DNA of 64,000 nt. Source: an uncultured Desulfospira sp. GTDB taxonomy: Bacteria; Desulfobacterota; Desulfobacteria; Desulfobacterales; Desulfobacteraceae. Both the position numbers and the translations under genes were made by a program. The stretch spans positions 4,960,001-5,024,000 of the forward strand of contig OY760175.1 in NCBI GenBank assembly GCA_963663165.1. The letters run 5' to 3'. Positions 263 to 60,886 of the stretch are shown here, piece by piece; position 1 is the first letter of the stretch, and every line of letters begins with the position of its first letter. Under the pieces are notes generated by a model that saw only the letters and a list, made by a program, of their open reading frames with translations, was not told the DNA's origin and did no database searches.

Positions 263-391
263 AATAGATTCCTTTCCATATAACCCCCATGTCCTAGCGG
301 ACACAACGAAGCATGAAACACTTGCAAATTTTGAAAAAAGGTCATAGCTATCAATTTTTTTTTCGACCAAGAAAAATATAAGGAGATAGCT

Positions 392-1651
392 ATGACCAAG
401 GGATCAAAAAATAGCACATTAATCCAAATTGTTCACCCAATTTGTTGTGGTTTGGATGTTCACAAAGACAAAATTTCAGCCTGTTTAATCACTGTTGATG
501 GTAATGGGAAAGAACAGCATAAGATTCGAGAATTTTCATCATTTACTCAAGATTTGCAAAAAATGAAAATGTGGTTGATTGAAAACAGCTGTCCTGTAGT
601 GGCAATGGAAAGTACCGGGGTATATTGGCATCCGGTTTATAACACCATTGAAGGTACGATGGAGGTTGTTTTGGTGAATGCCAGGCATATTAAAAATGTT
701 CCAGGCAGAAAAACAGACATCTGTGACAGTAAATGGCTTGCAGGACTGCTTCGTCATGGGTTGGTAAAAGGTAGTTTTATTCCCCCTGAACATGTTCGTG
801 AATGGCGTGAGTTAAGCCGATTACGAAAAACATATACAGAATCTCTGGCTGATTATAAGCGACGTGTTCATAAATTATTTATCACGGCAAATATTAAAAT
901 TGATTCTGTTGTTTCTGATTTGTTCGGGCTTACCGGTTTGAATCTCATTGATTTGTTATGCAAAAACGGTGAAGTGACTTTGGAAAAGGTCCAGGAATGC
1001 ACAAAAGGAGGGCTTAAAAAGAAAATTCCTGAATTATATTTAAGCCTCCATGGATATTTTAAAGATCATCATCGATTCCAACTGATTGGCATGATGGAGG
1101 CCATTGAGATGTTTCAAAAACAGATTGAACAAATTGATGATAGATTGGAATTACTTACCCTCGACTATGAAAATTTACTGAAAAGGTTAGATGAAGTTCC
1201 CGGGATCGATAAAAAGTCAGCGCAATCCATTCTTGGAGAAGTCGGGGTCACATTGAATGAGTTTGAAAGCATGTCTGCTTTTGTTGCATGGGCCGGATTG
1301 TGCCCGGGAAACAATGAAAGCGCGGGTAAAAGGAAAAGCGGCCGGAACGCGGTTCGAAATCATCCATTCAAAACGATTTTAGTGCAGGCTGCATGGGCTG
1401 CAATTAAAAAGAAGGGCTCGTACTACAAGGCCAAATATTATAAGCTGAAGTCAAGGCGGGGTGCCAGAAAAGCGATTGTTGCCATAGCCCACAGGATAGC
1501 AAAAGCTATTTACAGCATCATCAAAAACGGGGACATTTATAAAGACCTTGGCGAGGACTATTTAAGCAAACCCAATAAGCAAAGAATGTTGAAGAATTTG
1601 GCAAGAAAGGCGGATGAATTAGGAATGAAACTTGTACCGTGTGAAAGCTGA
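392..1651 (+). CDS. IS110-family transposase/recombinase
   Basis: DEDD RuvC-like motifs GLDVHK, MESTGVYW, RKTDICDS; C-terminal GLCPGNNESAGK with the conserved Ser; AGGAG RBS. Confidence 0.97.
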   Translation: MTKGSKNSTLIQIVHPICCGLDVHKDKISACLITVDGNGKEQHKIREFSSFTQDLQKMKMWLIENSCPVVAMESTGVYWHPVYNTIEGTMEVVLVNARHIKNVPGRKTDICDSKWLAGLLRHGLVKGSFIPPEHVREWRELSRLRKTYTESLADYKRRVHKLFITANIKIDSVVSDLFGLTGLNLIDLLCKNGEVTLEKVQECTKGGLKKKIPELYLSLHGYFKDHHRFQLIGMMEAIEMFQKQIEQIDDRLELLTLDYENLLKRLDEVPGIDKKSAQSILGEVGVTLNEFESMSAFVAWAGLCPGNNESAGKRKSGRNAVRNHPFKTILVQAAWAAIKKKGSYYKAKYYKLKSRRGARKAIVAIAHRIAKAIYSIIKNGDIYKDLGEDYLSKPNKQRMLKNLARKADELGMKLVPCES

Positions 1652-1842
1652 ATAACTTAGCAACATGTTTTGTACCGATATTGTTTAGAGGCGTACAACA
1701 GATAAATTGATTATTGACTCAGTAATAAAAAGTCGGATGTTGAAATGAAGCCTTAGAGCGCGAATATAACATGACTGGTCGGTTTTTTGCACAACGAACT
1801 GTTAGTCCCCACCAGGGGAACTACGTATATAAAACTTATTTA

Positions 1843-3720
1843 GTGCCTGACCGGAAACCCCGATTTTGAAATTTTCAGGGGGTCGATGTTTGACAAAACC
1901 TTAAATCTTTGTTGTTCCTGTCATCACAAACCGGGAGAAATGCTTCCATCTCTGCCGGTTTTCGGCAACTTTCTCCTTTTCCGGACGCAACTGTAGTGTT
2001 TGCCGTGTTTTTTTTAAGCAATGGCCTGTTTTAAGCTGCTTTGCGCTGTTCAGACCCTTGCAGCTTTTTTAATCCCTTTTGTTGTATGTGATGCCCGATG
2101 ATCTGGAGATTTCTTGCCAAAACCGACAGGCTCACATACCTCTTAAACCCTTGAATGCCATGATCCGGGCATCTGTCAAGACCATGATTTTCCAGTCCGT
2201 TTATGGCAGATTCCACCGCTGAATGTTTTCTTTTAAAACGAATGAAATCTTCCGCTGTTTCTTCTTCATATTCCGCCTTGTTGCATCTGCCTTTTTTCGG
2301 AAGCACCAAAATATCCAATCTGCCCTTCAGGTCATTTTTGTTGCCTGGAGAGTAAAACCCTTTATCAAAACTGCATCCTTTGAGATCAGAAAATTTGCTT
2401 TGTGCCAATGTTACCATCGCAACGGCGACTTTATCATCGGTTTCTTTCTCCATCACCCGGTGGTGCAGGATAAAGCCATATTGGTCCTCCAGGATACATA
2501 CCCGCAAGCCCAATTCCTGGGGAACACCGGCCTTGCCTTTTGAAATCCACTCCGTGTGGGGTTCGAAAATCGAAAAAATCTTGTCTTCATGGGGGATCTT
2601 TTCATCCTGTAACACCCGGCGTTTGATCAAATCAATTTGCCAAAGTGCGTAGTTGATATATGTTTGTAATTCTTCAGCTCGGGCTGCACATATAATATCG
2701 GATGCCGGTATCATTTCCACGGTCAATCGCGCCTTTTGAATATATTTTTCAGCAAGCTTGATATATGCTGTATGGGCATCCATAATTTGCTGGACTCTTT
2801 TGGCCTTTTTCTTTTCATCCTTTGATGTGGAATGTTTCAAACGCTGGACTATTCGATAAAGCTTTTTAAATGCTTTAATATTATACGCTGATTGCCGCCA
2901 CATACTCGTTCCAATGTCCTGGCTGATAATAGCGGCAATTTGAATCATTTTTCGGACTGCATCAAAAAGCAGGTTGATATCTGTGGGATAATGAACATTG
3001 GTTTCTACAACGAATGAATCACACCGCCCAATCAAGGCTCCATCGTCCGAAGTTTTTTTTTCATCAGAAGTTTATGGCCTTCTTGCACAACCAGAGTGTT
3101 GATTTTGTCAAGAATATCTGGGGTCATAAGCCTGACATTATCTTTCAGGGTCTGAAGGGGGTAGGCGATATCATTGTCCATCATGCCATGCCCCAGCATC
3201 TGCCTTATTGTTTTGTGGTTGTTCACCATTTCCTGGAGTTTATCATAATCCCAATTGCAATTGAGCCGAATGACGCCCATTACAAGGATCTTCCACAGGT
3301 CCATACCGGGACGTCCATTTTTAGAATCGGTACTTTCTGGGATCATGTCCGTGAGGATATCAAAAACTTTTTGTCGAAGACTCTGGTCGCAATAGATATG
3401 TTGGAGTCCCAAAAGAAGTTTGGGGATTTCATCCCTGGCTCTCATATCAATTTTAATTTGATCGATAGGGGTCTGCCCGAATGTCATCTGTAGTTCAAAA
3501 ATTTTACGCAAAACGACCTCGAAGTTCTGATGGAATGTTGAAGTTTGAATTACTATTGGCTTGTCTCACAAAACATAAATCCTATATAATTTTATAGGGT
3601 TAGATTAACATAGTAATTAGTAAAAAGCAACAAGTAATTCATATCACAACAGAAACTTCAAACGAATTTCAGCCCAGATACCCCTGGAAAATATGATGGT
3701 TCCAATTTCCGGTCAGGCAC
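1843..3720 (-). mobile_element. ISNCY/ISDol1-like (IS5-related DDE) insertion sequence
   Basis: Perfect 15-bp TIRs GTGCCTGACCGGAAA (1843-1857) / TTTCCGGTCAGGCAC (3706-3720); 6-bp target duplication TATTTA (1837-1842, 3721-3726). Confidence 0.92.
2031..3511 (-). CDS. DDE transposase in two frames (3032-3511 and 2031-3035) joined by a -1 shift at an A9 run
   Basis: GRPGMDLWKIL, DSFVVETNVHYPTD, SFDKGF and HSAVESAINGLE motifs; T9 at 3053-3061. Confidence 0.88.
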
Positions 3721-4009
3721 TATTTAAGTAAACTGACCACTACTGATGATTTAAGAAACTATCTTCTGTGCTTGAGATATTAACCAAACGGGAAATATTA
3801 TCGATTGGATATTAAAAAATTGTAACGCTAATCAAAATGTTTTGGGGCAAACCCATAAACCAACGGAATTCTATTCCCTTTTTACGGGGTAGTGTTTCAT
3901 ATAAACGGTCATGGACCATCTTTGGGTTCATTGCAGGATACGAGCCTGATGGGGCATCCTGTCAATGGTTCTTCATTATTTTATGTTTGTAAAACAGAAT
4001 GTTAATGGA

Positions 4010-4397: not shown

Positions 4398-4704
4398 AAC
4401 TGATAACACAATCCCGACAATTATGCAAAATAAGATGTCTTCAAAAGAAGCAAGGCAGAATTGGGCCAGGTTAATCCAAAAAATTTATGAAGTTGATCCT
4501 TTGGTTTGCCCAAAATGTCAGGGTCAAATGAAACTGATTTCTTTTGTGGAAAATCTCGATGTTATAGAAAAAATTCTGCGTCACCTGGGCTTATGGGATA
4601 TTCACAACCATGATCCACCGCAGGCGGTTATTTCTGAGCCCATTCCTGAGTTGGTTTATGACTTTTCAGACTCTCAAATTCCGGCGGTTGAGTATTGGAA
4701 TTGA
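4396..4704 (+). pseudogene. IS91-family transposase C-terminal fragment
   Basis: Zinc-finger-containing tail only; catalytic region absent. Confidence 0.8.
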
Positions 4705-4952
4705 TTTTCACTGTACGCGGGGTTTCTGGTGAGGTGCGCTTAAAATCAGCTTAAATTTTGGAATTTTCATATTTGCTTTGGAAATTTCTGATACAGACTG
4801 TTCTTTTACCTCTGTCCTGCGACATCCCTTTTTTCGGCGAATGCCCCCGCCGGGCCACAGGCACAACATGTTGTGCCTGTGGCCCGGCGGGGGCATATTT
4901 CAAGCTTCCAATATTTTTCTATACTTCTTGAGTCAATAAGCAAGTTCTTATC
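4396..4952 (+). mobile_element. IS91-family remnant (transposase C-terminus plus oriIS-like end)
   Basis: WARLIQKIYEVDPLVCPKCQGQMKLISF..KILRHLGLW; terminal AAGCAAGTTCTTATC (4938-4952) resembles IS91/ISCR ori ends and coincides with the break in the neighbouring gene. Confidence 0.75.
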
Positions 4953-19304: not shown

Positions 19305-19484
19305 AACGGCCACGGGCCGATTGGATTGTTAATCCGGTTCGGCCCACAACAAAGCATGAAAGAATTACAGCAGCTTGCAGATTTTTTCATATAAACGGCC
19401 ACGGGCCGCTTTGGTTATCCAACCAAGAGCCGCCCACAACAAATATTGAAAGTCTTCTCAGGACGTTAGTGAGGCTTTCATATA
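19305..19484 (+). repeat. Alternating A-B-A-B hairpin array
   Basis: A 19305-19350 and 19394-19440; B 19351-19393 and 19441-19484; AAC at the junctions. Confidence 0.9.
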
Positions 19485-36442: not shown

Positions 36443-36626
36443 GTTATCTTTTTAATCGTTCTGTTTTTATTTTGTAACTATTCAGCGAATGCTGAAAAAG
36501 GATCAAAAACCAGGGCCCGTAACTGTTCATCAGTGCTTCATTTTTTAGTGTCTGGCTGGACAACCAAAGACGGTTCGGTTTCTGCCTTTAACAAATCAAT
36601 TTTACAGGAGGTTAACCGGTTCCGGG

Positions 36627-41782: not shown

Positions 41783-41987
41783 CATATAACGGTCACGGAC
41801 CGTCTTTGGTTATCCAACCAAGCATTGGTCCACAACAAAAAATGAAAGTTTTTTTAGAACTTTTGGTAAAACTTTCATATAACGGCCACGGGCCGCCTTG
41901 GTTATCCAACCAAGAACTGCCCACAACAAATATTGAAAGCACTCAACAGGTTGCTGAGTCTTTCATATAAAACGGCCCCGGGCCGCC
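41783..41987 (+). repeat. Alternating A-B-A-B-A' hairpin array
   Basis: A 41788-41836 and 41881-41927; B 41837-41880 and 41928-41970; partial A from 41971. Confidence 0.9.
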
Positions 41988-42029
41988 CAAAACGATAAAG
42001 CTAATGGCCAAACGCCAAAGGACAATAAC

Positions 42030-59788: not shown

Positions 59789-59899
59789 CGGTTTTGGTCA
59801 GGGCAGTAAATTTTATAAGAAACTGGAGACAAGAAACAAGAGACAAGAGGGCGAAGCACCTGCGGTGCCCAATTTATAGTCTACCGTTGCTGGTATCTT

Positions 59900-59963
59900 C
59901 AGTTTCATTATTCGTTGTGGACGGTGCTTGGTTGGATAATCCAAGCCGTCCGTGACGGTTATA
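59900..59963 (-). repeat. Unit A plus left end of unit B, minus strand
   Basis: 59914-59963 is the exact reverse complement of 60739-60788. Confidence 0.9.
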
Positions 59964-60738: not shown

Positions 60739-60886
60739 TATAACCGTCACGGACGGCTTGGATTATCCAACCAAGCACCGTCCACAACAAATATTGAAAG
60801 TCTTCTCAGGACGTTAGTGAGACTTTCATATAAACCGTCACGGACGGCTTGAATTATCCAACCAAGAACCGTCCACAACAAAAGCA
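60739..60886 (+). repeat. Alternating A-B-A hairpin array
   Basis: A 60742-60788 and 60833-60879; B 60789-60832 nearly identical to 19441-19484. Confidence 0.9.

What the first reader, a model, noticed from the sequence alone, without database searches (positions are those of the whole stretch)
19305..19484. Alternating A/B hairpin arrays that read as concatenated IS1111 recombination junctions
Seen: three intergenic arrays (19305-19484, 41783-41987, 60739-60886), plus partial copies at 59900-59963 and about 36530-36580, alternate two ~45-bp hairpins that always join through AAC. Unit A is AAC-(G/C)G(C/T)CACGG..CCAC-AAC and unit B is AAA..TGAAAG..TTTCAT-AT(A). The full IS at 308-3903 sits exactly where a B unit would: GGACAC-AAC-GAAGC-ATGAAACACT...AGTGTTTCAT-ATA-AAC-GGTCATGGACC. 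B at 19351 begins AAAGCATGAAA, one base different from the IS left end. Established: IS110/IS1111 enzymes recombine a target and a donor through a short core, guided by a bridge/seek RNA. Inference: B is a non-autonomous mini-IS1111, and the empty target equals the right end of A + AAC + the left end of A, i.e. the circle junction of A. Both units would then be symmetric substrates, giving a REP/BIME-like repeat system spread by an RNA-guided recombinase. I know of no description of this, but could not search.
Basis: partly seen in the sequence, partly recalled or inferred. Interest (0 to 1): 0.88.

Follow-up and report, generated by a model that had tools for sequence, protein, structure and literature searches.

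The report
Miniature IS110 elements piled in tandem
The alternating hairpins are head-to-tail copies of one 93-base gene-less miniature of an RNA-guided (IS110-type) jumping gene, which stack up because the element's guide RNA aims at the sequence found at the right end of every copy.

Summary
The arrays are real, but A and B are two halves of one ~93-bp unit, not two elements. nhmmer finds 310 units at 240 loci: 179 single, 52 double, 9 triple.

I lined up eight insertions that have empty paralogous sites. All eight empty sites lack A and B together. The unit enters after T-AA.

The IS110-family IS has three full copies and one fragment. Its left and right ends are collinear with those of AB, and its own A-type hairpin (window 284-307) belongs to the IS.

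Its 3' non-coding region encodes a structured RNA with 11 of 14 base pairs covarying. One RNA segment, S0, matches the three bases left of the element in 32 of 32 parsed IS insertions from 16 genomes, across five target classes.

In this genome S0 reads ATATAAC, which is the element's own right end. That explains head-to-tail stacking.

157 of 202 AB left junctions fall into four classes that match S0 variants seen in the family.

The B-as-mini-IS and A-as-target model does not. Mobilisation in trans is inferred.

The closest published case I found is MITEPpu9.

The parts
280..283 (+). ATAA on the target side of the left joint of the IS (TAT-AA class; the preceding bases read TTTCCAT, like a decayed element right end)
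   Evidence: S0 match
284..307 (+). A-type hairpin of the IS left end (CCCCCATGTCC-TAGC-GGACACAAC); it is part of the IS
   Evidence: It is identical in 4 of 4 copies or fragments and absent elsewhere at <=4 substitutions. It co-diverges with the IS in G005. It is collinear with A of AB.
308..322 (+). GAAGC followed by the left subterminal inverted repeat ATGAAACACT
392..1651 (+). IS110-family transposase gene, 419 aa
   Evidence: PF01548 3.1e-23 and PF02371 6.8e-16; NF033542 'IS110 family RNA-guided transposase' at 237.9 bits against a cut-off of 140
1763..1770 (+). S0, the left-target guide segment AATATAAC of the non-coding RNA
   Evidence: It covaries with the left flank in 32 of 32 parsed insertions.
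1778..1784 (+). 5' arm of RNA stem P1
   Evidence: 5 of 7 pairs change on both sides
1789..1799 (+). S1, the near-invariant GCACAACGAAC in the guide loop; role unknown
   Evidence: By my reading of the rows, its variable base agrees with the left end in only 4 of 12 loci.
1803..1823 (+). RNA hairpin P2 inside the guide loop
   Evidence: 6 of 7 pairs change on both sides
1826..1835 (+). S2, TATATAAAAC, which matches the element's right end plus the A run (candidate left-donor guide)
   Evidence: One co-change with the right end is seen in L059 (CACATAAAA in both).
1843..3720 (-). A second, unrelated IS nested in the non-coding region. It separates S2 from the 3' arm of P1, so this copy's guide RNA is broken.
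   Evidence: 9 other full copies and 2 partial copies in the genome; no Pfam match
3731..3737 (+). 3' arm of RNA stem P1, displaced by the nested IS
3891..3904 (+). Right subterminal inverted repeat AGTGTTTCAT followed by AT-AA (right joint)
3905..3925 (+). Decayed left part of an A hairpin in the right flank of this IS copy only
19307..19392 (+). AB unit 1 of array 1 (variant A and variant B), entered at ACT-AA
19396..19483 (+). AB unit 2 of array 1, joined to unit 1 through TAT-AAA-C
41790..41880 (+). AB unit 1 of array 2, left joint TAT-AA-C
41883..41968 (+). AB unit 2 of array 2
41973..41990 (+). Truncated A after a TAT-AAAA joint
59815..59958 (-). A-C unit: an A hairpin followed by the ~100-bp C element in B's place
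60744..60831 (+). AB unit of array 3, left joint TAT-AA-C
60835..60879 (+). A-only unit after a TAT-AAA joint

Best explanation
A and B are the left-end hairpin and the paired subterminal repeats of one ~93-bp non-coding miniature ('AB') of an IS110-family insertion sequence.

The full element is 1.73 kb. In order it carries: an A-type hairpin, CACAAC, 5 nt, the repeat ATGAAACA.., the transposase gene, a 365-nt non-coding region, the repeat ..TGTTTCAT, and AT-AA.

The non-coding region encodes a structured guide RNA. Its segment S0 specifies 3-5 bases plus AA on the left side of the target. Its segment S2 matches the element's own right end.

In this genome S0 reads (A)ATAT-AA-C. That is the same sequence as an element's right end followed by the first base of the next unit. 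New copies therefore land directly behind existing ones, or at other TATAA sites, and head-to-tail arrays result.

Shown here:
- AB inserts as a single unit.
- AB inserts into a small number of target classes.
- The ends of AB and the IS are collinear.
- The RNA structure is supported by covariation.
- S0 covaries with the target.

Inferred:
- The transposase and RNA move AB in trans.
- Movement goes through a circular intermediate.
- The ACT-AA and AAT-AA insertions were made by guide variants no longer present in this genome.
For: 1. One unit. There are 310 nhmmer hits, of which 232 are near full length. 16 arrays had flank matches elsewhere. I lined up the 8 with a clean empty paralogue. 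In 8 of 8 the empty site lacks both hairpins and keeps N-T-AA. Two of these (a129, a130) are independent insertions at the same point of repeat D.

2. Arrays arise by separate insertions. Adjacent units are 0.812 identical on average, against 0.824 for random pairs. None of the 45 adjacent pairs reaches 0.97.

3. Shared ends. The left ends of four ISs, four AB/AC units and a G013 mini element align as AAC, nnnCAYG, stem, (optional inner hairpin), stem, CACAAC, nAAnn, WTGAAA. All end in TTTCWTATAA.

4. The A-type hairpin belongs to the IS.
- It is attached to the IS in 4 of 4 occurrences here.
- In G005 the 5 IS copies sit behind 5 different B right ends and carry the same hairpin. It has diverged only in the diverged copy.

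5. Guide RNA.
- RNAalifold on 23 sequences predicts stems P1 and P2.
- 98.4% of cells are paired and 11 of 14 pairs change on both sides. 0 of 500 shuffles reach this, and slid controls give at most 51% paired.

6. Guide and target.
- The three bases before AA in S0 equal the three bases left of the IS in 32 of 32 parsed insertions: TAT 19, AAT 6, ACT 5, TAG 1, ACC 1.
- The 5 G005 copies also agree; I read these by eye.

7. AB uses the same classes. Among 202 AB left junctions, TAT-AA-C occurs 56 times, ACT-AA-C 44, AAT-AA-C 43 and ATA-AA-C 14. The background frequencies are 0.9%, 0.25% and 1.2% for the first three; no background was computed for ATA. These bases are present in the empty sites, so they come from the target.

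8. Three inverted AB units sit in B loops exactly at CACTAA^C.

9. No column of AB predicts the target class (maximum 0.197 bit). This fits a guide supplied in trans.
Against: - Only the TAT-type IS is present here (3 copies), yet 87 of 202 AB junctions are ACT or AAT class.
- The same-genus genome G001 has at least 58 AB matches but no PF01548 match (96% complete). G013 also has mini elements and no PF01548 match.
- AB's first bases (CGGCC or CCGTC) and its repeat (ATGAAAGTCT) differ from the IS (CCCCC, ATGAAACACT). AB is therefore not a simple deletion of the resident IS.
- No circular junction, transcript end or movement was observed.
- I found no right-target guide. Right flanks share only a leading A.
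- S1's variable base agrees with the left end in only 4 of 12 loci (my reading), so its role is unexplained.
- The left extension beyond the inverted repeat is about 29 nt, against 7 nt in described IS1111 elements (PMC11187229, Introduction).
- The 32 insertions are not 32 independent events. They amount to five guide classes.
Confidence: 0.72

Rival explanations
1. B is a mini-IS that inserts between A ends through an AAC core. A is a separate, symmetric substrate, and the circle junction of A is B's target.
For: - The canonical IS1111 geometry (7 nt left and 3 nt right beyond the inverted repeats; PMC11187229, Introduction) would place the IS ends at about AACGAAGC.. and ..ATA. That is the A/B joint.
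- RNA segment S1 (CACAACGAA) equals that joint in G000.
- Both joint types share YAYAAC.
Against: - 8 of 8 empty sites lack A and B together.
- The A-A joint occurs 0+1 times.
- The right flanks of 2 of 3 IS copies here and 3 of 5 in G005 are not A.
- S0 covaries with the bases left of the A-type hairpin in 32 of 32 insertions.
- S1's variable base agrees with the joint in only 4 of 12 loci (my reading).
Confidence: 0.05
2. AB is a REP/BIME-like or IS200/IS605-like palindrome element moved as single-stranded DNA by a Y1 transposase. It inserts 3' of TAA. The IS110 element only shares its landing site or has captured its ends.
For: - The genome has 14 Y1_Tnp matches.
- Two of them score 72.7 and 78.6 bits on the REP-associated tyrosine transposase model, against a cut-off of 80.
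- AB has a hairpin near each end, a fixed orientation and a short target 5' of the left end. Its right end repeats the target. From my own knowledge, these are features of IS200/IS605.
- G001 and G013 keep AB-like elements without any IS110 transposase.
Against: - No Y1 gene is flanked by AB. The nearest AB hits lie 679, 1025 and 1535 bp away on one side only, and about 1 of 14 within 1 kb is expected by chance.
- The target classes of AB equal the S0 guide variants of the IS family. A Y1 model does not predict this.
- The IS carries the same left and right ends.
Confidence: 0.12
3. AB is an independent host-maintained structural repeat (a terminator or mRNA-stability element) that spreads by duplication and gene conversion. 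The IS merely targets it, as ISPa11, ISPpu9 and IS621 target REPs.
For: - IS110 and IS1111 members that target REPs are documented (PMC11187229 Introduction; PMC12288879 abstract).
- In G005, 5 of 5 IS copies sit directly behind a B right end.
- AB copies are up to 99% identical between G000 and G001, while a neighbouring gene stretch matched at 88%.
Against: - Precise filled/empty pairs at unrelated repeats show insertion, not local duplication.
- Adjacent units are no more alike than random pairs.
- The IS's own left end contains an A-type hairpin that is absent elsewhere in the genome.
Confidence: 0.08

Closest known systems
MITEPpu9 (ssr9 module) of ISPpu9, IS110 family, Pseudomonas putida KT2440 (PMC12288879; I read the abstract, section 13 and Discussion passages)
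   Same: It is a short gene-less module flanked by near-copies of the IS end boxes. It forms its own circles when the transposase is present, and some copies lie in tandem. The authors call it MITE-like.
   Different: - It has 8 copies, against 310 hits here.
- It carries an sRNA gene, and its target is a host REP.
- Here the unit is just the two ends, and it lands behind its own right end.
- Here the flanks record several guide classes.
IS1111-type elements with a downstream seekRNA (ISEc11, ISPa11, ISKpn4; PMC11187229; I read the abstract and sections 4, 6, 9, 10, 13)
   Same: - A non-coding region downstream of tnp.
- Subterminal inverted repeats.
- A short RNA carrying segments that match the target.
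- Natural retargeting between relatives (ISEc11 and ISXne4).
- Mini-IS cargo that can be moved with about 50-bp ends.
   Different: - The transposase is 419 aa, against 330-350 aa.
- The left extension is about 29 nt and contains a hairpin, against 7 nt.
- The inverted repeat is 10 bp, against 11-13 bp.
- The target is only about 6-8 nt and resembles the element's own end.
IS621 bridge RNA system (PMC13626964; I read the abstract and the Main section)
   Same: - A DEDD/RuvC domain plus a Tnp domain.
- An RNA with stem-enclosed loops that hold guides for the left target and left donor.
- A short core repeated at both joints.
   Different: - In IS621 the RNA is upstream of tnp and the core is CT.
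- Here the RNA is downstream and the shared core is AA.
- I could not identify the right-side guides.
REP/BIME with RAYT, and REPINs (recalled; seen here only in the reference list shown)
   Same: Hundreds of intergenic hairpin units, single or in short mosaics.
   Different: - No association with a Y1 gene was found.
- Units are in direct rather than inverted orientation.
- The ends are shared with an IS110-family element.

Membership tests
IS110 family (the full element) | Transposase with a DEDD RuvC-like domain and the C-terminal Tnp domain | tested here: met
   PF01548 and PF02371 are both above their cut-offs. NF033542 scores 237.9 bits against 140.
IS110 family (the full element) | Non-coding RNA with stem-enclosed guide loops that match the target and the element's ends | tested here: met
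   P1 and P2 covary. S0 equals the left flank in 32 of 32 insertions. S2 equals the right end. No Rfam family matched. Right-side guides were not found.
IS110 family (the full element) | Site- and orientation-specific insertion with only a short core repeated | tested here: met
   All joints are N-T-AA | C.. and ..TAT-AA | A. In AB empty sites the AA is present once.
IS110 family (the full element) | Circular intermediate with abutted ends | not testable with these tools
   This needs outward PCR or raw reads.
IS1111 subgroup | Subterminal inverted repeats of 11-13 bp with extensions of 7 nt (left) and 3 nt (right) | tested here: not met
   The repeat is 10 bp. The left extension is 29 nt (284-312) and the right is 2-4 nt. 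The criteria are from PMC11187229.
IS1111 subgroup | Long non-coding region downstream of tnp | tested here: met
   There are 365 nt between the stop codon and the right repeat.
IS1111 subgroup | Transposase of 330-350 aa clustering with IS1111 | tested here: inconclusive
   The length is 419 aa. No tree was built.
MITE / non-autonomous derivative (AB) | Short, non-coding, many copies, and ends shared with an autonomous element | tested here: met
   Units are 93 bp with 310 hits. The ends are collinear with the IS.
MITE / non-autonomous derivative (AB) | Terminal inverted repeats and a target-site duplication | tested here: not met
   The ends are CGGCC.. and ..TTTCATAT, with no terminal inverted repeat. 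Only the AA core is repeated. AB is therefore 'MITE-like', as MITEPpu9 is.
MITE / non-autonomous derivative (AB) | Mobilised in trans by the partner transposase | not testable with these tools
   This is inferred from the shared ends and shared target classes.
REP/BIME-RAYT | A Y1 transposase gene flanked by the repeats | tested here: not met
   0 of 14 Y1 matches are flanked on both sides.

The most novel reading that the evidence does not exclude
A REP/BIME-like repeat population of hundreds of copies, spanning several genera, is produced by an RNA-guided IS110-family recombinase. Its target guide has drifted onto the element's own right end, so copies concatenate. The flanks of the miniatures are a fossil record of successive natural reprogramming of the guide (TAT, AAT, ACT, ATA in this genome; also TAG and ACC in relatives). 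This includes guide variants whose parent IS has since been lost from the genome. A bolder corollary is that the A hairpin is a structural part of donor recognition, which would explain the conserved CACAAC in both the DNA end and the RNA loop.
Probability: 0.55. Interest if true: 0.75.

Novelty: new variant of a known kind. Interest (0 to 1): 0.62.

Why it matters
- It would show that RNA-guided IS110 recombinases can populate a genome with hundreds of miniature copies, not only with a handful of full elements. Some REP-like arrays may therefore have this origin.
- The data give a natural series of target-guide variants with matching insertion sites: five classes among the ISs and four among the miniatures. 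This is a ready-made data set on guide length and tolerance, about 3-5 nt plus AA.
- The minimal mobile substrate would be about 90 bp, made of two end modules. That is useful for work on donor requirements of bridge/seek-RNA recombinases.

Tried and rejected
- Rfam scan of the intact IS at E<=10: only chance-level matches and no bridge or seek RNA family.
- k-mer search for guides in the non-coding region. It pointed first to S1 (CACAACGAA). S1's variable base then agreed with the left end in only 4 of 12 loci (my reading), so I did not count S1 as a guide.
- Search for a right-target guide. Right flanks within a genome share only a leading A. The variable RNA stretches did not track them, so no assignment was made.
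- Orthologous empty sites in same-genus genomes. In G001 the DNA match to the left flank of array 1 (88% identity) stops about 650 bp before the array. G002 matched only the gene flanks at 70-75%. No usable orthologous empty site was obtained, so I used paralogous empty sites instead.
- Of 16 arrays with flank matches elsewhere, 8 were not lined up. They had gaps of 36 bp or more, matched other filled copies, or were nested or rearranged cases. One of them (3746702) looks like an AB at a D site that later lost B through a deletion between two ATGAA repeats.
- Test of whether AB carries its own target guide: no column is informative (maximum 0.197 bit).
- Test of whether repeat D is the partner of the Y1 genes: the nearest D copy is more than 4 kb from any Y1 match.
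- RNA evidence. Metatranscriptome contigs (4 runs, 3 studies) hold relatives of the IS that are 85-95% alike. Short contigs over the guide block have higher word depth than the tnp contig in one run. Contigs cannot show strand, ends or level, and DNA carry-over is possible, so I do not count this as evidence of expression.
- My regular expression for B subtypes failed, so no association between B subtype and target class was obtained.

Full report
OBSERVATION

Each half folds into a hairpin. As single-stranded DNA, three window units and one reverse strand have z-scores of -3.6 to -5.0, and 0 of 200 shuffles fold as well.

The repeat is genome-wide. The A loop core ATCCAACCAAG occurs 211 times, and almost every A is followed by a B. 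A 93-position nhmmer model built from 88 strict matches finds 310 hits at E<=1e-3. Of these, 232 are near full length. The hits lie at 240 loci: 179 single, 52 double and 9 triple.

The 'alternation' is therefore the tandem repetition of one two-hairpin unit.

The one near 36530 is not an AB unit. It holds half of another repeat, D.

UNIT OF INSERTION

Sixteen arrays have flanks that recur elsewhere in the genome. I lined up the eight that have a clean empty paralogue.

- In all eight the empty site lacks both A and B (or A and C) and reads ..N-T-AA-N...
- The filled site reads ..T-AA | C(G/C)G.. on the left and ..TTTCWTAT-AA(A)(A) | .. on the right.
- Two of them (a129, a130) are independent insertions at the same point of repeat D. 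One is a single AB; the other is an A-C plus an AB.

Partial units that are not A-C number 18. Most are truncations, nested insertions or two palindromised A forms.

Adjacent units in arrays are no more alike than random pairs: mean identity 0.812 against 0.824. None of 45 adjacent pairs reaches 0.97. Arrays therefore grow by separate insertions, not by local duplication. Internal joints are TAT-AA-C (41), TAT-AAA-C (14) and TAT-AAAA-C (3).

THE IS

The transposase is 419 aa with PF01548 and PF02371. It scores 237.9 bits on NCBIfam's 'IS110 family RNA-guided transposase'. The genome has three identical copies, one end fragment and one distant relative.

That sequence, allowing up to 4 substitutions, occurs nowhere else in the genome. 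The right flanks differ: an A left end in the window copy, and unrelated sequence in the other two.

In genome G005 a 65%-identical IS has five copies. Each sits directly behind a different B right end (..GAGACTTTCATATAA). Each carries the same A-type hairpin, which has diverged only in the diverged copy. Only two of the five are followed by an A.

The left ends of four ISs, three AB units, one A-C unit and a G013 mini element are collinear: AAC, nnnCAYG, stem, (optional 21-nt inner hairpin), stem, CACAAC, nAAnn, WTGAAA. All end in TTTCWTATAA.

The IS is therefore about window 284-3904. AB has the architecture of the whole IS with everything between the subterminal repeats removed.

The window copy also carries a second IS nested at about 1843-3720.

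GUIDE RNA

The 365-nt region after tnp contains a block that is conserved in 33 of 161 genomes of the family, from 11 of 19 genera.

On 23 distinct sequences RNAalifold predicts two stems. P1 encloses a loop, and P2 is a hairpin inside that loop. Counting pairs gives 98.4% paired cells and 11 of 14 pairs with changes on both sides. 0 of 500 shuffles reach this, and slid controls give at most 51% paired.

Just 5' of P1 lies a segment I call S0, of the form xxxx-AA-C followed by ATGAC. The three bases before AA in S0 are identical to the three bases left of the IS in 32 of 32 insertions where both could be parsed. I examined 54 loci; 22 had no parsed left joint. Five of those 22, in G005, agree when read by eye.

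The classes are TAT (19 insertions, 7 genomes), AAT (6, 3 genomes), ACT (5, 4 genomes), TAG (1) and ACC (1). This amounts to a handful of independent guide changes, not 32 events, but every one is matched.

The 3' side of the loop holds S2, C/TATATAAAAC. It equals the right end plus the A run. In the one IS whose right end reads CACATAA, S2 reads CACATAAAA.

I read S0 as the left-target guide and S2 as the left-donor guide. Right-side guides were not identified. The near-invariant GCACAAC in the loop (S1) is unexplained.

In the window copy the nested IS separates S2 (1826-1835) from the 3' arm of P1 (3731-3737). That copy's RNA is therefore broken.

LINK TO AB

Of 202 array left edges, 56 read TAT-AA-C, 44 ACT-AA-C, 43 AAT-AA-C and 14 ATA-AA-C. 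The genome background for the first three is 0.9%, 0.25% and 1.2%.

These are the S0 classes seen among the ISs of the family; ATA-AA-C corresponds to the G005 form. The empty sites show that these bases belong to the target.

Three inverted AB units sit in B loops exactly at CACTAA^C.

No AB column predicts the class (maximum 0.197 bit), so the guide is not carried by AB.

In this genome S0 (ATATAAC) equals the right end plus the first base of a unit. That explains insertion directly behind existing copies.

AGAINST, AND OPEN POINTS

- Only the TAT-type IS is present here.
- G001 (same genus) has at least 58 AB matches, up to 99% identical to the window's units, while a neighbouring gene stretch matched at 88%. 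It has no PF01548 match.
- A sample of 21 G001 arrays gave TAT 12, AAT 3, ATA 3 and other 3.
- AB's first bases and repeat differ from those of the resident IS.
- Movement, circles and transcripts were not observed.
- RNA-library contigs of relatives cover the block, but they cannot show expression.

RIVAL EXPLANATIONS

A Y1/RAYT origin is the main rival. There are 14 Y1 matches, two of them just under the REP-transposase cut-off. None is flanked by AB, and this model does not predict the guide classes.

KNOWN WORK

Searches of the held library found one IS110-family MITE-like element: MITEPpu9 of ISPpu9, with 8 copies, some in tandem (PMC12288879). They also found REP-targeting IS110 and IS1111 members (PMC11187229). 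I found no description of a high-copy, array-forming miniature of this family, nor of guide classes recorded in miniature flanks. Subscription journals and ISfinder were not searchable.

I reached and tested it with my own calls.

VERDICT

- The specific B-in-A model is wrong.
- This is a new variant of a known kind.

Noticed in passing
window 1843-3720 (minus strand ORFs 2031-3035 and 3032-3511): The nested IS has 9 other full copies and 2 partial copies in the genome at 99.7-100% identity. Its two overlapping ORFs (334 and 159 aa) match no Pfam family at E<=0.001. It is flanked by a 6-bp repeat, TATTTA.
   Followed up: partly
genome C1, e.g. 315862-316107; half copy at window 36515-36545: Repeat D is about 150 bp and partly palindromic, with 117 blastn hits. 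It carries a preferred AB landing site, CTGACTAA^ACAAATATGAAG, which is used at least three times (a129, a130, 6163641).
   Followed up: partly
window 59815-59900 (minus strand) and 38 other places: The C element (39 copies) contains a 7-nt tandem (TCTTGTC/TCTTGTT) whose copy number varies, giving parsed stretches of 118, 125 or 132 bp including 12-nt flanks on each side. It also has a GC-rich hairpin. About half of the copies follow a short A form without the inner hairpin.
   Followed up: no
genome-wide AB left joints: The TAA of the target closes an open frame of at least 100 codons in 28 of 168 arrays, against 3.7% of random TAA. Some units therefore sit exactly on a gene's stop codon, which the insertion preserves.
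   Followed up: partly
G001 loci L011-L016, L060-L079: The same-genus genome holds many AB units, up to 99% identical to this genome's, although a neighbouring gene stretch matched at 88%. It has no IS110-family transposase match. This points to recent spread, transfer or homogenisation.
   Followed up: partly
L001 321-383 (window 337-399): The 5' leader of tnp can pair GGTCATAGCTATC with GATAGCTATGACC, which would cover the ribosome-binding site and start codon. G005 has an analogous pairing with different letters. This may control translation.
   Followed up: no
window 4401-4757, and genome 4958990-4959346 just before the window: Two copies of a ~357-bp repeat bracket the IS region. They are the empty paralogues of the AB insertion at 4619940.
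   Followed up: no
genome 6163641-6163719 and 6365666-6365704: There are two 'palindromised' A units whose right half is the exact inverse of the left half. They end in GTTAT and have no B.
   Followed up: no
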